A DNA stretch of 64,000 nt from Escherichia phage KIT01 (AP019521.1); one strand, 5' to 3'. Shown: positions 383 through 41,400, counted from the stretch's first letter. Numbers and translations: made by a program. The notes: generated from the letters alone by a model not told the origin.

Positions 383-610
383 TTATTTTCCTAACGAAAC
401 ACGAGTAGGTTTTTTACCAAAATAGTCTTCATAAGAACCATCTAAACGTCCCGCTTTAGACCGACAATATGAATCGTACTTTTTATAATAAGTCATCTCA
501 GTATTATAACGTGGGTGTCTATCAGCCATAATAATACTTAGTGGCCAACCTTTGGCATAATCGCGAAGACCATTTATTTTACGAATGTATCGTTTTTTCA
601 ATTTTAGCAT
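383..610 (-). CDS. hypothetical small basic protein
   Basis: 75-aa ORF in compact minus-strand early gene run, overlaps stop of upstream gene. Confidence 0.3.
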   Translation of the reverse strand: MLKLKKRYIRKINGLRDYAKGWPLSIIMADRHPRYNTEMTYYKKYDSYCRSKAGRLDGSYEDYFGKKPTRVSLGK

Positions 611-828
611 GAGCTTGGGTACCAGATTTTACCATCGGCCTGAGCAACGAAGGTGCGACCAGCTTCTTCACCATAACAAGAGCTATTCAGCCAATCTTCG
701 AGACGAACTTCACCGTCATAATCGTCTAGCTCAACACCAAAATCCTGAGCAGAAGCCATATCTTTTACTTTCTTATACAGTGCGGCCAGTTCAAGTGCCG
801 CTTTTTCTAATTCATTAATATCAGACAT
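604..828 (-). CDS. small acidic protein, member 1 of tandem paralog family (C-terminal W-x-SSC)
   Basis: 74 aa, ends IWYPSSC; shares motif and junction sequence with next three ORFs. Confidence 0.5.
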   Translation of the reverse strand: MSDINELEKAALELAALYKKVKDMASAQDFGVELDDYDGEVRLEDWLNSSCYGEEAGRTFVAQADGKIWYPSSC

Positions 829-839
829 TTTTTATCACC

Positions 840-1049
840 TTAGCAAGACATAGAGGAGCTAAACCAGAAACCTTCACCTTCAGGAATACCGTAGTCATCA
901 CGGGCCCATTCATAATCATCATATTCCGGACTAGAAGCTGGAATATATTCTTCGCCACCAGCGTGGAAGTGCTGACCTGTTTCGTCAGCCACGGCCTGGC
1001 CTTTACGTACTAATTCGCGGATTTGTTTTTCAATTTCATCAATAGTCAT
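840..1049 (-). CDS. small acidic protein, paralog family member 2
   Basis: 69 aa, ends FWFSSSMSC; conserved 3-prime junction ttagca...gaggag. Confidence 0.5.
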   Translation of the reverse strand: MTIDEIEKQIRELVRKGQAVADETGQHFHAGGEEYIPASSPEYDDYEWARDDYGIPEGEGFWFSSSMSC

Positions 1050-1058
1050 TTTATTTCC

Positions 1059-1340
1059 TTAGCATTCAGAAGAAGAGGACACCCAACCACCATTTTCTAG
1101 GCTGGTAGTGTAATCATGCTGGTTTACAATAGCGTACTGAGCTTCACCGTATTCTTCCCAGTGGGCAAGGTCGGCTTTCAGGGCGCCAGGAGAATAATAG
1201 TCACCGCCCATACCGCGAGCAGGGTATATATTAAAATGAGTCTCATATTTGTTTGCAATTTCCTCGGCACGACGAATAGCTTTATGGATATCATTTACTG
1301 CATCAGCCAGTTCTTTATTTTTACGGTAATCATTCATCAT
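1059..1340 (-). CDS. small acidic protein, paralog family member 3
   Basis: 93 aa, ends GGWVSSSSEC; KYETHF and DYYSPG motifs shared with member 4. Confidence 0.5.
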   Translation of the reverse strand: MMNDYRKNKELADAVNDIHKAIRRAEEIANKYETHFNIYPARGMGGDYYSPGALKADLAHWEEYGEAQYAIVNQHDYTTSLENGGWVSSSSEC

Positions 1341-1349
1341 AGCGTTTCC

Positions 1350-1640
1350 TTAGCACAATGCCGAAGAGGAGACCCAAGCACCAACGGTAACGACACCGTT
1401 TTCAACTTCACCACCGTTGTTTTCAATTTCATCTTTAAACCACTGGGAGCATTCGTAACCGACAGGATAATATGTACGACCCGAACCATAATCACCAGTG
1501 CCGAATTCAATACCATACTTATCGGCAATAGCTTCACATTCATGTTCGATGGTATTCACTTTATTCAGAAGAGCATAGATAGCCTTTTCTGCAGATTTCT
1601 CGTCGTTGTGTTCCGGGATTTCGATTTCAATTTTATTCAT
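1350..1640 (-). CDS. small acidic protein, paralog family member 4
   Basis: 96 aa, ends GAWVSSSALC; KYGIEF and YYPVGYE motifs. Confidence 0.5.
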   Translation of the reverse strand: MNKIEIEIPEHNDEKSAEKAIYALLNKVNTIEHECEAIADKYGIEFGTGDYGSGRTYYPVGYECSQWFKDEIENNGGEVENGVVTVGAWVSSSALC

Positions 1641-1987
1641 GATTTACATTCCTTAATAAAGGTTTCAAGGTCATTACGTTTAGTTTGTTTTACATACTCA
1701 TTATAATTAGCCATCTCTAAAGCATATCTCTTTTTGCTTGGCTTGTTTATCCTATTGGTGTTGATAATATCCAAGACAAGAGGGATAAAGTATCCTATTA
1801 AAGCTGGAACCCAAATCCAGGCAGGGTTCAATTCAAATAGATTTTGTGTCGTATCATTAACGACTCCGCCAGCAATTAGTCCAACAAGCCCGGCAATCAT
1901 ACCAGTGACAAGTCCAGCGAATAAAGAAATAGCGATATCATAATCTGCTAATGCGTAACCAGGGTCGGTTTTACTAGGCTTATACAT
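1637..1987 (-). CDS. small membrane protein (two predicted TM helices)
   Basis: ORF 1637..2161 trimmed to internal ATG at 1987 preceded by aagagg; hydrophobic stretches ISLFAGLVTGMIAGLVGLIAGG and WIWVPALIGYFIPLVL. Confidence 0.4.
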   Translation of the reverse strand: MYKPSKTDPGYALADYDIAISLFAGLVTGMIAGLVGLIAGGVVNDTTQNLFELNPAWIWVPALIGYFIPLVLDIINTNRINKPSKKRYALEMANYNEYVKQTKRNDLETFIKECKS

Positions 1988-2516
1988 TACGAACCTCTTT
2001 AGCGTATTCGCGGCATTCAGCAATAAAACGATTAAGCTTCCGTTGCTGTTTTCGAATCTCTGATGTATACTCATTGGCCAAAATAATAAGCTCATCTTTA
2101 TCGTAATTTTTAATATCAGAGTAAGATGGGCGGCGGTCGACCATACCAAAATGGTCACCATTTTCTAACATCAAATAGCATACTAAATGGTAATCATCGT
2201 CGGCATTAGTAAGCTGTTTATAATCGCTTGGTTCATTTAAAGAGTATACTGAATAGCGTAGCCCAGCGAACTCCACTCGTTGAATATCCAGATTTACGTC
2301 AATAATTTCTAAAGCTTCTGCAAAAGAAAGGTCCTCAGCCAAAGCAAAGATAAAAGGTAATTTGGTAGTATGCCCACGGCTACTTGTTCGACTTAAGAAA
2401 TCATTGGAATAACCTAAGTCTTGGCGAATTCTATAAAGAACTGAATTAGTTTCATGTGAAAGACCACTATGTTTAAACCAATCAATATTTGATATCAGGT
2501 CGTCATATAAACTCAT
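1980..2516 (-). CDS. hypothetical protein
   Basis: 178-aa ORF; ggaggagagg RBS region upstream at 2521-2530; terminator-like hairpin just beyond. Confidence 0.45.
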   Translation of the reverse strand: MSLYDDLISNIDWFKHSGLSHETNSVLYRIRQDLGYSNDFLSRTSSRGHTTKLPFIFALAEDLSFAEALEIIDVNLDIQRVEFAGLRYSVYSLNEPSDYKQLTNADDDYHLVCYLMLENGDHFGMVDRRPSYSDIKNYDKDELIILANEYTSEIRKQQRKLNRFIAECREYAKEVRNV

Positions 2517-2539: not shown

Positions 2540-2557
2540 GGGAGACCGAAGTCTCCC
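2540..2557 (-). terminator. stable tetraloop hairpin (gggagac-TTCG-gtctccc on the transcribed minus strand)
   Basis: 7-bp GC-rich stem; same hairpin sequence as the gp23 terminator in opposite orientation; weak U-tract. Confidence 0.4.
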
Positions 2558-2564
2558 AGTAACA

Positions 2565-3158
2565 TTACTTAAGTGAATTAATGTAGTCGTCGATATCGGC
2601 AGAAGTCGTATCCATTCCAACTTGCGGGCCTTTAAACGTTTCTACACGCAGTAGGGTGTCTTCAATATCAATCTTAGTCAGTGCAGCGATTTCAACAACA
2701 TCATCGGCAGTAGCAATACCAAGGGCAGCCATATTACGAGTTTCACGGATATACTCGAGCTTAACGGCCAGTTCCTGACGAGAGTCATCAAGTTCCTTAA
2801 CCTTCAGTTTAATTTCATTACGCATTTCGATATAATCATCAGCTTTCTTACGAAGCTGAGTAGCTGTACGACGATAAAGGAGGCCAAGTTTAGCATGTAC
2901 CTGGACATCAGCGCCTTCGGCAATCAGTTTACGAATTTCACGTTCTTTAGAAGCAGCGAGCTGGTCCTTTTCATTAGCCAATGCACGAATACGTTTTTCT
3001 TCATTCACGGACTTAACATGAGCAGTCTGGAGTTCAGTAATTTTATCAATCAGGGTAGAAGCAGCTTTGGTGTATTGGTCTTCGATTGACAGGTTCTGAG
3101 TCATCGCGGTGCCCAGTTTAGAACGAATGAATTCAACGATTTTCTTTAAAGTGTTCAT
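2565..3158 (-). CDS. coiled-coil protein, possibly PspA/IM30-like
   Basis: 197 aa, heptad-rich Lys/Glu/Arg sequence with loose resemblance to PspA N-terminal region; early-type promoter upstream. Confidence 0.4.
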
Positions 3159-3202
3159 AGTATTTCCTTCAGTTGGTTAACGTTTTGTAATCCATGAGGA
3201 CA

Positions 3203-3232
3203 TTATACCCTGTCCTCTGAGGGTTGTAAACA
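3203..3232 (-). promoter_or_regulatory. sigma70 early-type promoter (GTTTAC -35, TATAAT -10)
   Basis: minus strand GTTTACA-N17/18-TATAAT upstream of gene 2565..3158. Confidence 0.5.
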
Positions 3233-3991: not shown

Positions 3992-4020
3992 ATAGTATCA
4001 TGTTTAAAGGAGGTGTAAAC
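3992..4020 (-). promoter_or_regulatory. sigma70 early-type promoter with conserved leader TACTATAGACCTATCAAAAC
   Basis: minus strand GTTTACA-N17-TACTAT; cassette repeated at 7280, 7848, 41716. Confidence 0.5.
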
Positions 4021-4049
4021 AACTTTGTGAAATTATTTTTAGTTTAAAC

Positions 4050-4074
4050 CCCCAAAAAGGAGACCGAAGTCTCC
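4050..4074 (-). terminator. intrinsic terminator after IPIII-like gene
   Basis: hairpin ggagac-TTCG-gtctcc followed on minus strand by UUUUUGGGGGUUU. Confidence 0.6.
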
Positions 4075-4079
4075 TTTCA

Positions 4080-4688
4080 TTATTTACGAGTCTTTTCGAA
4101 CTGTGCTGCGTCACCTGCAAGGCGGCCCGCTTGGCGAAGTTTGTTATTGATTTCTTCGCGCATAGGCTGGGTATACTTAAGGCCTTCAACCGTCAGATAG
4201 AGACGATACAGGTCTGGGGTATCCAGGTTGTTAATGTGTTGACCATTACGAAGAGCGTTGAATTCACGAACAAGGTGTTTAGTTTCAGATTCGATTTCAG
4301 AAACTAAAGAAGCCAGTTGGTTATATTTTTTAACTATAGTGCTGGTGTCAAACTTGATTTTAGATTTAGGAGCTTCTTTTACAGGTTCTGGTTTAGGCGT
4401 CGGTTTCGGTGTTGCAACTTTGGGCTGAGCCGCAGGTTTAGCAACAGGAGCTTTAGCAGGTTTAGCAGCGCCACCAGCTACTATATCTTTAAAAGCTTTG
4501 GAAGCTTTGTAATATTCTTTCTGGCTGCTAGTATCAAAACCATACATATCATAGACGTTTTTAAAGAATTCGGTGGTGGTTTTAGTCCCAGAAATTTTAT
4601 CATAAGCTGCTTGCCACATATCTTTAGTCATGCGGATGCCGGCTTCACTCAGAACGCTTTCGTTCAAAAATTCATTGTAAGTTTTCAT
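4080..4688 (-). CDS. internal protein, IPIII-like, with N-terminal capsid targeting sequence
   Basis: 202 aa (T4 IPIII about 193); N-terminus MKTYNEFLNE matches T4 CTS consensus MKTYQEFIAE; Ala/Pro/Lys-rich linker; late promoter TATAAATA upstream. Confidence 0.6.
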   Translation of the reverse strand: MKTYNEFLNESVLSEAGIRMTKDMWQAAYDKISGTKTTTEFFKNVYDMYGFDTSSQKEYYKASKAFKDIVAGGAAKPAKAPVAKPAAQPKVATPKPTPKPEPVKEAPKSKIKFDTSTIVKKYNQLASLVSEIESETKHLVREFNALRNGQHINNLDTPDLYRLYLTVEGLKYTQPMREEINNKLRQAGRLAGDAAQFEKTRK

Positions 4689-5756: not shown

Positions 5757-5831
5757 TGGTATCCCGCCCTGGGATCGAACCAGGACCGCAAACTTAGAAG
5801 GATCGTATGCTATCCATTACACCAGCGGGAC
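5757..5831 (-). tRNA. tRNA-Arg (anticodon UCU), CCA encoded
   Basis: manual cloverleaf: 7-bp acceptor GTCCCGC/GCGGGAT, T-arm CCTGG-TTCGATC-CCAGG, anticodon loop CTTCTAA with U33 and A37; one mismatch in anticodon stem. Confidence 0.7.
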
Positions 5832-5836
5832 GTAGT

Positions 5837-5913
5837 TGGTGACCCAGACCAGATTTGAACTGGTAACCTTTCCCTTATGAGGGGACTGCTGCTAACCATT
5901 GAGCTACAGGGCC
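5837..5913 (-). tRNA. tRNA with CAU anticodon (Ile-lysidine type or Met), CCA encoded
   Basis: manual fold: acceptor GGCCCTG/CTGGGTC (one mismatch), U8, D-arm GCTCAATGGTTAGC, anticodon loop CTCATAA, T-arm ACCAG-TTCAAAT-CTGGT. Confidence 0.6.
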
Positions 5914-41376: not shown

Positions 41377-41400
41377 GGGAGACTTCGGTCTCCCATTCTT
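41377..41400 (+). terminator. intrinsic terminator after gp23
   Basis: gggagac-TTCG-gtctccc followed by attcttgttt. Confidence 0.6.

What the first reader, a model, noticed from the sequence alone, without database searches (positions are those of the whole stretch)
2565..3158. Possible PspA/IM30-like coiled-coil protein in the early region
This 197-aa protein is almost entirely heptad-like with charged residues, and its N-terminal 100 residues loosely parallel PspA (hydrophobic IV..I start, ED, then long charged helices). A phage-encoded PspA/ESCRT-III-like protein could stabilise the host membrane during infection. I could not confirm this by eye.
Basis: inference. Interest (0 to 1): 0.4.

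Follow-up and report, generated by a model that had tools for sequence, protein, structure and literature searches.

The report
Phage T4 e.6: divergent PspA/IM30 homologue
The 197-residue protein is the T4-type phage gene e.6, a very diverged relative of the bacterial membrane-repair protein PspA/Vipp1 that is kept by over a thousand large phages yet has no tested function.

Summary
The ORF is real: 2565..3158 on the minus strand, 197 aa. It is 100% identical to e.6 of phage JS10 and 74% identical to T4 e.6.

The PspA/IM30 reading holds, but only at profile level.
- The window protein alone hits no PspA model in Pfam or the PDB.
- A 53-sequence family profile aligns in register from residue 1 with a PspA/Vipp1/LiaH profile. 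hhalign gives 91-94% probability and E 1e-6 to 3e-8; reversed and shuffled controls stay at or below 2.8%.
- The same profile's best PDB match is Vipp1 (E 1e-4).
- Two members from Ackermannviridae phages pass Pfam's own PF04012 threshold.
- The AlphaFold model shows an N-terminal amphipathic helix and a long helical hairpin. Its eight best Foldseek matches are all Vipp1.

Homology covers residues 1-150. The C-terminal 50 residues show no detectable similarity.

The gene has its own T4-early-type promoter and a 3' C(UUCG)G hairpin. Its neighbours turn over while it stays. T4 e.6 is expressed but dispensable in two genome-wide screens.

The most likely role is an inferred one: an early, phage-supplied inner-membrane stabiliser. 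A one-sentence HHpred remark from 2021 already noted the PspA link.

The parts
3202..3230 (-). Sigma-70/T4-early-type promoter of e.6: TTTACA, 17 nt, TATAAT (11 of 12 consensus positions)
   Evidence: Promoter scan. It aligns with the -35/-10 signals annotated upstream of T4 msp3/e.6. A TTTACA-16/17-TAnnnT site lies 56-108 nt upstream of the start in 27 of 44 related loci.
3165..3169 (-). Shine-Dalgarno AAGGA, 6 nt upstream of the ATG
   Evidence: AAGGAAATACTATG is invariant between the window, JS10 and T4 and widely kept in related loci.
2565..3158 (-). e.6 coding sequence, 197 aa plus TAA stop (2565-2567)
   Evidence: ORF list and sequence. 100% identical to JS10 e.6 and 73.6% to T4 e.6. phrog_1203 over full length.
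3093..3152 (-). Residues 3-22: predicted N-terminal amphipathic helix, the counterpart of IM30 helix alpha0
   Evidence: AF2 helix 3-22, at low pLDDT of about 50. Hydrophobic moment of residues 2-19 is 0.46, against 0.42 for E. coli PspA and 0.57 for Vipp1. It aligns to PspA/Vipp1 residues 1-22.
2919..3086 (-). Residues 25-80: first arm of the coiled-coil hairpin (alpha1)
   Evidence: AF2 helix 25-80, pLDDT 72-97. Aligned to PspA/Vipp1 alpha1. The fraction of shuffles reaching its 3.5-residue periodicity is 0.004.
2724..2903 (-). Residues 86-145: second arm of the hairpin (alpha2/3). It includes the most conserved motifs, [11 protein letters not shown] and [12 protein letters not shown].
   Evidence: AF2 helix 86-145, pLDDT 80-94. 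Conservation from alignment A1. The A88-K89 motif aligns with the conserved A-R of IM30 alpha2. The hairpin superposes on Vipp1 6zvs_A at 3.0 A over 122 columns.
2568..2723 (-). Residues 146-197: family-specific C-terminal region with three short predicted helices (151-159, 166-174, 186-196) and conserved G147, T174-F175, Y192, S195-L196
   Evidence: Model and conservation. Taken alone it has no significant similarity to IM30 C-termini: hhalign score 9.6, against shuffles up to 9.2 and the reversed profile at 10.9.
2540..2557 (-). GGGAGAC-UUCG-GUCUCCC hairpin, 7 nt after the stop codon. This is a C(UUCG)G-type intercistronic stem-loop, probably a 3'-end stabiliser or RNA-processing barrier rather than a full terminator.
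   Evidence: Sequence and fold. T4 has a stem-loop annotated at the same place. A UUCG-looped stem lies 2-7 nt after the stop in 27 of 44 loci, with at least eight different, mutually compensating stem sequences.

Best explanation
The ORF is the T4-type gene e.6. It is a phage-specific, strongly diverged member of the PspA/IM30 (Vipp1, LiaH) family, which belongs to the ESCRT-III superfamily.

Residues 1-150 keep the family's N-terminal amphipathic membrane-binding helix and its long alpha1-alpha2/3 hairpin. The last 50 residues are lineage-specific.

The gene is a self-contained unit. It has its own T4-early-type promoter and a 3' C(UUCG)G hairpin, and it is made early in infection.

Inferred mechanism: e.6 binds the cytoplasmic face of the inner membrane through helix alpha0 and self-assembles. 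That would keep the membrane sealed and energised in a cell whose own sigma-54-dependent Psp response can no longer be induced once T4 shuts off host transcription. Such a role would protect DNA entry, ATP supply and correct lysis timing. It could also blunt membrane-depolarising host defences. It behaves as an accessory function, not an essential one.

Shown here: gene identity, expression signals, homology over residues 1-150, predicted fold.
Inferred: membrane binding, oligomerisation, physiological role.

My confidence is about 0.9 for the homology and about 0.4 for the membrane-protective effector role.
For: Identity:
- 100% identical to JS10 e.6 and 73.6% to T4 e.6.

Homology:
- hhalign of A3 against A4 gives 90.5-91.5% locally and 93.6% globally, E 1.4e-6 to 3.3e-8. 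It is in register from M1.
- Controls: reversed profiles give 0.7-2.8%; 20 column shuffles give at most 1.0%.
- The A3 HMM against the PDB: the best hit is Vipp1 8qfv, E 1.1e-4, and eight of the top nine are Vipp1/PspA.
- P0194 (39.0 bits) and P0189 (35.1 bits) exceed PF04012's gathering score of 33.9, aligned residues 6-146 to profile positions 2-143. They belong to the e.6 family at E 1e-18 and 4e-21. Reversed controls are negative.
- HHpred 99.9% to PspA 4WHE has been reported for a T4 e.6 homologue (PMC7862958).

Fold:
- AF2 gives pLDDT 80 with helices 3-22, 25-80 and 86-145.
- The Foldseek top eight are all Vipp1, followed by the archaeal ESCRT-III protein CdvB2.
- The N-terminal helix has an amphipathic moment of 0.46, inside the IM30 range.

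Expression:
- A conserved early-type promoter and Shine-Dalgarno are present.
- T4 e.6 RNA is early-class and the protein is detected.

Selection:
- 1110 phage genomes carry it, across Straboviridae and Ackermannviridae.
- e.6 is retained in 43 of 44 loci while its neighbours are kept in only 10-14 of 44.

Context:
- Canonical PspA is almost absent from phage records: 2 metagenomic hits.
- T4 induces the host psp operon only weakly, unlike PhiX174 (PMC12795941).
- PspA's role in repairing proton leakage is established knowledge (Kobayashi 2007 and Joly 2010, cited).
Against: - The window protein alone has no PspA hit in Pfam, NCBIfam or the PDB.
- The profile built from T4-like members only gives 37.9% hhalign probability. 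It gives no PDB hit to IM30.
- A shallow enterobacterial PspA profile gives 0.75%.
All five are PF04012-positive, and the Vipp1 sequence matches the PDB chain.
- The C-terminal 52 residues show no similarity to IM30 alpha4/alpha5. Helix alpha5 is required for Vipp1 polymerisation (PMC8281802), so ESCRT-III-like assembly cannot be inferred by homology.
- T4 e.6 tolerated transposon insertion at 43 of 43 sites and scored 'Not Fit' in the CRISPRi-ART knock-down screen, that paper's class for genes without a measurable fitness effect. No phenotype supports any role.
- No membrane partner is conserved next to it.
Confidence: 0.6

Rival explanations
1. Regulatory mimic. e.6 uses its PspA-like N-terminal hairpin to bind host Psp components (PspF, PspA or PspBC). 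It would silence, hijack or poison the host phage-shock response rather than act on lipid itself.
For: - The demonstrably homologous part, residues 1-150, corresponds to the PspA(1-144) fragment crystallised as 4WHE. To my knowledge that fragment carries PspF binding; I recall this and did not test it.
- The C-terminal polymerisation region is not conserved.
- Every host named in the hit lists is an Enterobacterales member or Aeromonas. To my knowledge these groups have the PspF-PspABC system.
- T4 triggers only weak psp induction (PMC12795941).
Against: - T4 shuts off host transcription anyway (established knowledge), so repressing a sigma-54 operon seems redundant.
- The amphipathic alpha0 helix is retained, which argues for membrane contact.
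- No residue-level evidence for a PspF-binding surface was obtained.
- The host bias may simply reflect sampling of phage collections.
Confidence: 0.2
2. Phage-specific membrane task. e.6 is an IM30-derived scaffold used for a T4-type process at the membrane. Candidates are control of holin timing or lysis inhibition, superinfection exclusion, or sealing of the injection site. It would not be a general stress protectant.
For: - Early expression from its own promoter.
- A conserved, lineage-specific C-terminal region that could bind a phage partner.
- Restriction to two families of large myoviruses.
Against: - No co-conserved neighbour exists.
- No fitness effect appeared in either T4 screen.
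- The known T4 players for these processes (t, rI, rIII, imm, sp) do not include e.6; this is from my own knowledge.
Confidence: 0.12
3. Generic coiled coil. The protein is a charged helical hairpin of independent origin, and its resemblance to PspA reflects only composition and heptad periodicity.
For: - No direct Pfam or PDB hit for the window protein.
- Many weak hits to unrelated coiled-coil families.
- Foldseek E-values are no better than 2.4e-3.
Against: - Reversed and column-shuffled profiles keep composition, and reversal also keeps periodicity. They score 7.5-21.9, against 44-48 for the real alignment.
- PF04012 is the only Pfam family reaching E below 1e-5 (best 8.9e-10). It is passed above its curated threshold by two members, in register from the N-terminus.
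- Reversed sequences lose the hit.
- The best PDB sequence and Foldseek hits converge on one family.
Confidence: 0.05

Closest known systems
PspA / IM30 family (Pfam PF04012: E. coli PspA, cyanobacterial and chloroplast Vipp1, B. subtilis LiaH)
   Same: - An N-terminal amphipathic helix followed by a roughly 120-residue alpha1-alpha2/3 coiled-coil hairpin.
- Profile alignment in register from residue 1 to about 150.
- The conserved A-(K/R) motif at the start of alpha2 is aligned.
- Similar overall size: 197 aa against 222 aa.
- Vipp1 chains are the best Foldseek and PDB-sequence matches.
   Different: - About 10% identity to E. coli PspA in the hhalign alignment.
- The window protein itself fails the Pfam model.
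- The loop after alpha0 carries N-x-S-x-E-D-Q-Y instead of the family's A-E-D-P.
- The C-terminal third is shorter and shows no detectable similarity to alpha4/alpha5.
- It is encoded by a virulent phage under an early phage promoter, with no pspF or pspBC-type partners.
- Its function is untested.
ESCRT-III proper (Snf7/CHMP, archaeal CdvB)
   Different: No sequence or profile signal to Snf7-type families. The structural scores lie within the range of unrelated helical bundles. e.6 has an alpha0 helix typical of IM30 rather than of eukaryotic ESCRT-III.
T4 e.6 / phrog_1203 ('conserved hypothetical protein')
   Same: This is the same gene: full-length phrog_1203 match, 73.6% identity to T4 e.6, and the same position between the tRNA cluster and gene e.
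   Different: Nothing structural. Databases and 2025 functional-genomics tables still list it as of unknown function. Some records mislabel it 'host specificity protein'.

Membership tests
PspA/IM30 (PF04012) | The protein itself matches the family HMM above the curated threshold | tested here: not met
   There is no PF04012 hit for the window protein even at E up to 10. There is none in NCBIfam. There is none by phmmer or the A1 profile against the PDB.
PspA/IM30 (PF04012) | Homology to the family at profile level or through intermediate sequences | tested here: met
   - hhalign of A3 against A4: 90.5-93.6%, E 1.4e-6 to 3.3e-8, with negative reversed and shuffled controls.
- The A3 HMM's best PDB hit is Vipp1, E 1.1e-4.
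- Family members P0194 and P0189 pass the gathering score of 33.9, and their reversed sequences do not hit.
- The e.6 profile finds P0194 and P0189 at E 1e-18 and 4e-21.
PspA/IM30 (PF04012) | N-terminal amphipathic helix alpha0 (membrane binding) | tested here: met
   Predicted helix 3-22. Hydrophobic moment 0.46 for residues 2-19, against 0.35-0.57 in five IM30 proteins; family median 0.44. This is a prediction only, and the model's pLDDT there is about 50.
PspA/IM30 (PF04012) | Long alpha1-alpha2/3 coiled-coil hairpin | tested here: met
   AF2 helices 25-80 and 86-145 at pLDDT 72-97. Superposition on the Vipp1 hairpin 6zvs_A gives 3.0 A over 122 columns, TM 0.69 normalised to the target. The heptad periodicity is significant.
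PspA/IM30 (PF04012) | C-terminal helices alpha4/alpha5 that make the polymer interfaces | tested here: inconclusive
   Short helices are predicted at 151-159, 166-174 and 186-196. The conserved tail ending Y-x-x-S-L-K resembles IM30 E-L-A-x-L-K by eye. However, the C-terminal region alone gives hhalign score 9.6, no better than controls.
PspA/IM30 (PF04012) | Forms large rings or rods and binds or repairs membranes | not testable with these tools
   This needs purified protein, EM, and liposome or proton-leak assays. Only single chains can be modelled here.
PspA sensu stricto (Psp regulon effector/regulator) | Encoded with, and regulated through, PspF and PspBC | tested here: not met
   The gene sits in a phage early region under its own sigma-70-type promoter. 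No neighbour is conserved between T4-like and Kuttervirus loci. Binding to host PspF was not tested.
ESCRT-III (Snf7, PF03357) | Sequence or fold match to Snf7/CHMP/CdvB | tested here: inconclusive
BAR-domain proteins | Three-helix crescent dimer with a match to a BAR family profile | tested here: not met
Rz-like spanins | Signal-anchor or lipobox plus a periplasmic coiled coil, encoded with a partner in the lysis cassette | tested here: not met
   Only noise-level hits were found: phrog_1267 at E 0.3 and TIGR03495 at E 0.29. The N-terminus is amphipathic and basic, not a membrane anchor. The gene is not in a lysis cassette.

The most novel reading that the evidence does not exclude
T4-like and ViI-like phages carry their own minimal ESCRT-III-superfamily membrane-remodelling protein. 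They deploy it within minutes of infection to reseal and keep energised the host inner membrane. That could prevent premature holin firing or defeat membrane-depolarising abortive-infection effectors. It would be the first functional viral IM30 protein, and its lineage-specific C-terminus would give it a new mode of assembly or partner binding.
Probability: 0.35. Interest if true: 0.7.

Novelty: new member of a known kind. Interest (0 to 1): 0.5.

Why it matters
T4 is the best-studied virulent phage, yet e.6 is still listed as 'unknown function' in 2025 genome-wide screens. It is nonetheless among the more widely kept accessory genes of two large phage families.

PspA was named for its induction by phage. 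A phage-encoded relative would turn that relationship round: the virus, having silenced the host's stress response, would bring its own membrane-maintenance protein.

This gives concrete, cheap experiments on four fronts: proton-motive-force maintenance during infection, lysis timing, resistance to membrane-targeting defence systems, and how small an IM30/ESCRT-III protein can be and still work.

The homology itself is not new. A 2021 genome announcement mentions it in one sentence (PMC7862958). The value here lies in independent confirmation with controls, in delimiting the homologous region, and in mapping the family's distribution.

Tried and rejected
- Direct searches with the single protein gave only coiled-coil noise: Pfam, NCBIfam, PADLOC, PDB phmmer.
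- The A1 profile (T4-like members only) against the PDB gave no IM30 hit.
- hhalign against a shallow profile of 10 enterobacterial PspA sequences gave 0.75%. This shows how much the result depends on profile diversity.
- Two homologue searches and one genome-collection scan seeded with PspA returned only PspA sequences at least 82% identical. They were of no use for building a deep template.
- An exhaustive HMM search of 1.84 billion representatives with A1 found only 46 proteins, all of the e.6 type. It gave no direct bridge to bacterial PspA.
- The afdb50 library was unavailable.
- The C-terminal region alone against IM30 C-termini gave no signal. I therefore dropped the idea that the Y-x-x-S-L-K tail is the alpha5 interface motif.
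- I looked for a conserved partner gene. e.5 is not related to the Kuttervirus downstream gene, and neighbours are present in only 10-14 of 44 loci.
- The literature yielded no functional study of e.6.
A1 recovered only T4-like genomes.

Full report
WHAT IS THERE

The coordinates 2565..3158 hold one uninterrupted ORF of 197 codons on the minus strand. The short plus-strand ORFs inside it, of 40 and 64 aa, have no support.

The window is a T4-like phage of the JS10/Dhakavirus type. The first 8 kb match phages LHE83, MN04, E33 and JS10 at 91-95% identity.

The protein is 100% identical to e.6 of phage JS10. It is 73.6% identical to T4 e.6, deposited as 'msp3' in L13089. It matches phrog_1203, a family of unknown function, over its full length at E 1.9e-83.

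tblastn finds it in 1110 of 50,697 phage records, 1108 of them near full length.

- The protein is 34% charged, with one proline.
- It is 84% helical in the model.
- Its hydrophobic residues show a 3.5-residue periodicity that none of 1000 shuffles reached.

IS IT PspA/IM30-LIKE?

The single sequence says no. Pfam, NCBIfam, PADLOC and PDB searches give only weak coiled-coil noise.

A profile of 35 T4-like orthologues (A1) also finds no IM30 chain in the PDB. In an exhaustive search of 1.84 billion representatives it finds only 46 proteins. All are about 200 aa and of the e.6 type.

That search did bring in far more diverged members, and these provide four lines of evidence.

1. Pfam through intermediates.
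- Scanning 53 family members one by one, PF04012 (PspA_IM30) is the only family that reaches E below 1e-5 (best 8.9e-10).
- P0194 (39.0 bits, E 8.9e-10) and P0189 (35.1 bits) exceed the curated gathering score of 33.9. They align residues 6-146 to profile positions 2-143.
- P0192 and P0193 are sub-threshold at E 1e-4.
- The four reversed sequences give no PF04012 hit.
- These proteins come from Ackermannviridae such as Kuttervirus.
- The e.6 profile finds P0194 at E 1e-18 and P0189 at E 4e-21 over their whole length.
- P0194 also hits the e.6 gene of phage E33, which is 98.5% identical to the window protein, by plain tblastn at E 4e-4.

2. Profile against profile.
- The 53-sequence alignment A3 was compared with a five-sequence IM30 alignment, A4. 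A4 holds E. coli PspA from NC_000913 plus Vipp1, LiaH, B. subtilis PspA and M. tuberculosis PspA.
- hhalign gives 90.5-91.5% probability, E about 1e-6, for residues 1-150 against 1-159.
- In global mode it gives 93.6%, E 3.3e-8. The alignment starts at M1 of both.
- Controls that keep composition give much less. Reversal, which also keeps helical periodicity, gives 0.7-2.8% (scores 17.7-21.9). Twenty column shuffles give at most 1.0% (scores 7.5-18.7). The real alignment scores 44-48.

All five score as PF04012 members, and the Vipp1 sequence reproduces the PDB chain. With narrower profiles the signal fades. A1 against A4 gives 37.9%. A1 against ten near-identical enterobacterial PspA sequences gives 0.75%.

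3. Profile against PDB sequences.
- The A3 HMM's best hit among 177,635 distinct chains is Synechocystis Vipp1, E 1.1e-4, residues 1-146 to 1-147.
- Eight of its top nine hits are Vipp1/PspA chains.

4. Structure.
- With the A3 alignment, AlphaFold gives pLDDT 80 and pTM 0.64. Helices are at 3-22, 25-80, 86-145, 151-159, 166-174 and 186-196.
- For both models the eight best Foldseek hits in the PDB are all Vipp1 chains (E 2.4e-3 to 2e-2). The archaeal ESCRT-III protein CdvB2 comes next in the second model and a few ranks lower in the first.
- The hairpin superposes on Vipp1 6zvs_A at 3.0 A over 122 columns.

One earlier report agrees. A 2021 genome announcement for phage Metamorpho states that its e.6 homologue aligns to PspA 4WHE at 99.9% in HHpred (PMC7862958).

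I conclude that homology to PspA/IM30 is well supported, at about 0.9.

LIMITS OF THE HOMOLOGY

Homology covers the N-terminal amphipathic helix and the hairpin. The N-terminal helix has a hydrophobic moment of 0.46, against 0.42 for PspA and 0.57 for Vipp1.

The last 52 residues, taken alone, score no better than controls against IM30 C-termini. This holds despite a conserved tail ending Y-x-x-S-L-K that looks like the family's E-L-A-x-L-K.

Helix alpha5 is required for Vipp1 ring and filament formation (PMC8281802). ESCRT-III-like polymerisation of e.6 therefore cannot be claimed from homology.

ANATOMY OF THE LOCUS

- A near-consensus promoter, TTTACA-17-TATAAT, lies at 3230..3202 on the minus strand. 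It aligns with the -35/-10 annotated for T4 msp3. The AAGGAAATACTATG ribosome-binding region is invariant.
- A similar promoter is present in 27 of 44 related loci.
- Seven nucleotides after the stop lies GGGAGAC-UUCG-GUCUCCC (2540-2557). T4 has a stem-loop annotated at the same place.
- 27 of 44 loci have a UUCG-looped stem there, with at least eight different, compensating stem sequences. This is the classic C(UUCG)G intercistronic hairpin of T4, as I recall from Tuerk et al. 1988.
- e.6 is present in 43 of 44 loci. Its neighbours are far less constant: e.5 in 10, e.7 in 13 and e.8 in 14.
- The gene downstream of the Kuttervirus copy is unrelated to e.5.

e.6 is therefore a self-contained, independently selected unit without a fixed partner.

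WHAT IS KNOWN EXPERIMENTALLY ABOUT T4 e.6

- Its RNA is early-class and its protein middle-class, and it is detected in the proteome (supplement of PMC9697503).
- It is non-essential. All 43 transposon sites were tolerated in HIDEN-SEQ. CRISPRi-ART, a genome-wide knock-down screen, scored it 'Not Fit', its class for genes without a measurable fitness effect. Both papers list it as of unknown function.
- Canonical PspA is almost absent from phage records, with two metagenomic hits.
- All hosts named in the e.6 hit lists are Enterobacterales or Aeromonas.
- T4 induces the host psp operon only weakly, whereas PhiX174 induces it strongly (PMC12795941).

MECHANISM (INFERRED)

The best-supported reading is an early, phage-supplied inner-membrane stabiliser. 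Helix alpha0 would bind the membrane and the hairpin would provide the scaffold. The protein would substitute for a host Psp response that cannot be induced after host shut-off. I put this at about 0.4.

Rivals:
- A mimic that binds PspF, PspA or PspBC through the conserved hairpin (0.2).
- A scaffold for a T4-specific membrane process such as lysis timing or superinfection exclusion (0.12).
- An unrelated generic coiled coil (0.05).

The absence of any laboratory phenotype fits an accessory, condition-dependent role. It supports none of the options positively.

VERDICT

Its functional idea is plausible but untested.

This is a diverged, phage-specific member of a known family. The link has already been noted once in the literature. 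Interest is moderate (0.5). The experiments listed under next steps would decide the matter quickly.

Noticed in passing
window 604-1640, minus strand (ORFs 1350-1640, 1059-1340, 840-1049, 604-828): Four tandem small paralogues (69-96 aa) all match the C-terminal part of phrog_899, a family of unknown function. Each ends in a similar W/F-x-SSS-x-C tail. Relatives lie within 4 kb of e.6 in 33 of 44 related loci.
   Followed up: partly
window 2541-2556 (-), 4059-4074 (-), 41378-41393 (+): There are three exact copies of the 16-nt hairpin GGAGACTTCGGTCTCC, which has a UUCG tetraloop; 0.02 copies are expected by chance. Two of them sit just downstream of minus-strand genes: e.6 and the phrog_2280 gene. 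The context of the third copy was not examined.
   Followed up: partly
L085-L125, first 2-7 nt after the e.6 stop codon: The stem-loop after e.6 keeps its UUCG loop while the stem changes by compensating substitutions across phage lineages (for example GGGAGAC, AGGGGC, AGAGGGC, GGGGCC, GAGGAC). This indicates selection on the RNA structure.
   Followed up: partly
window 5757-5913, minus strand: tRNA-Arg(tct) and tRNA-Met(cat) lie 5 nt apart. Phage JS10 has a tRNA-Asn between them, which this window lacks.
   Followed up: no
database records of e.6 orthologues (e.g. NC_055831, OK335775; UniRef names of P0002, P0032, P0038): Some e.6 orthologues are annotated 'host specificity protein'. Nothing found here supports that name. 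It looks like a propagated mis-annotation.
   Followed up: partly
window 4080-4688, minus strand: A 202-aa protein (phrog_2280, unknown function) has a long Ala/Pro/Lys-rich low-complexity linker (AAKPAKAPVAKPAAQPKVATPKPTPKPEPVKEAPK) between two structured ends.
   Followed up: no
window 1637-1993 and 1980-2516, minus strand: Downstream of e.6 lie an e.5-position gene (phrog_8788, only weakly related to T4 e.5's phrog_2607) and a phrog_2330 protein. The latter has two hydrophobic segments, and its start overlaps the end of the preceding gene. Neither gene is kept with e.6 outside the closest relatives.
   Followed up: partly
L083 (Salmonella phage GEC_vB_GOT, Kuttervirus) 4001-4609: Ackermannviridae carry an e.6-family gene whose N-terminus (F-x-x-x-E-A-N-x-x-x-x-L-D-K) is much closer to canonical PspA than the T4-type sequence. 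It lies between hypothetical genes upstream of DNA ligase. It is annotated only as a hypothetical protein.
   Followed up: partly
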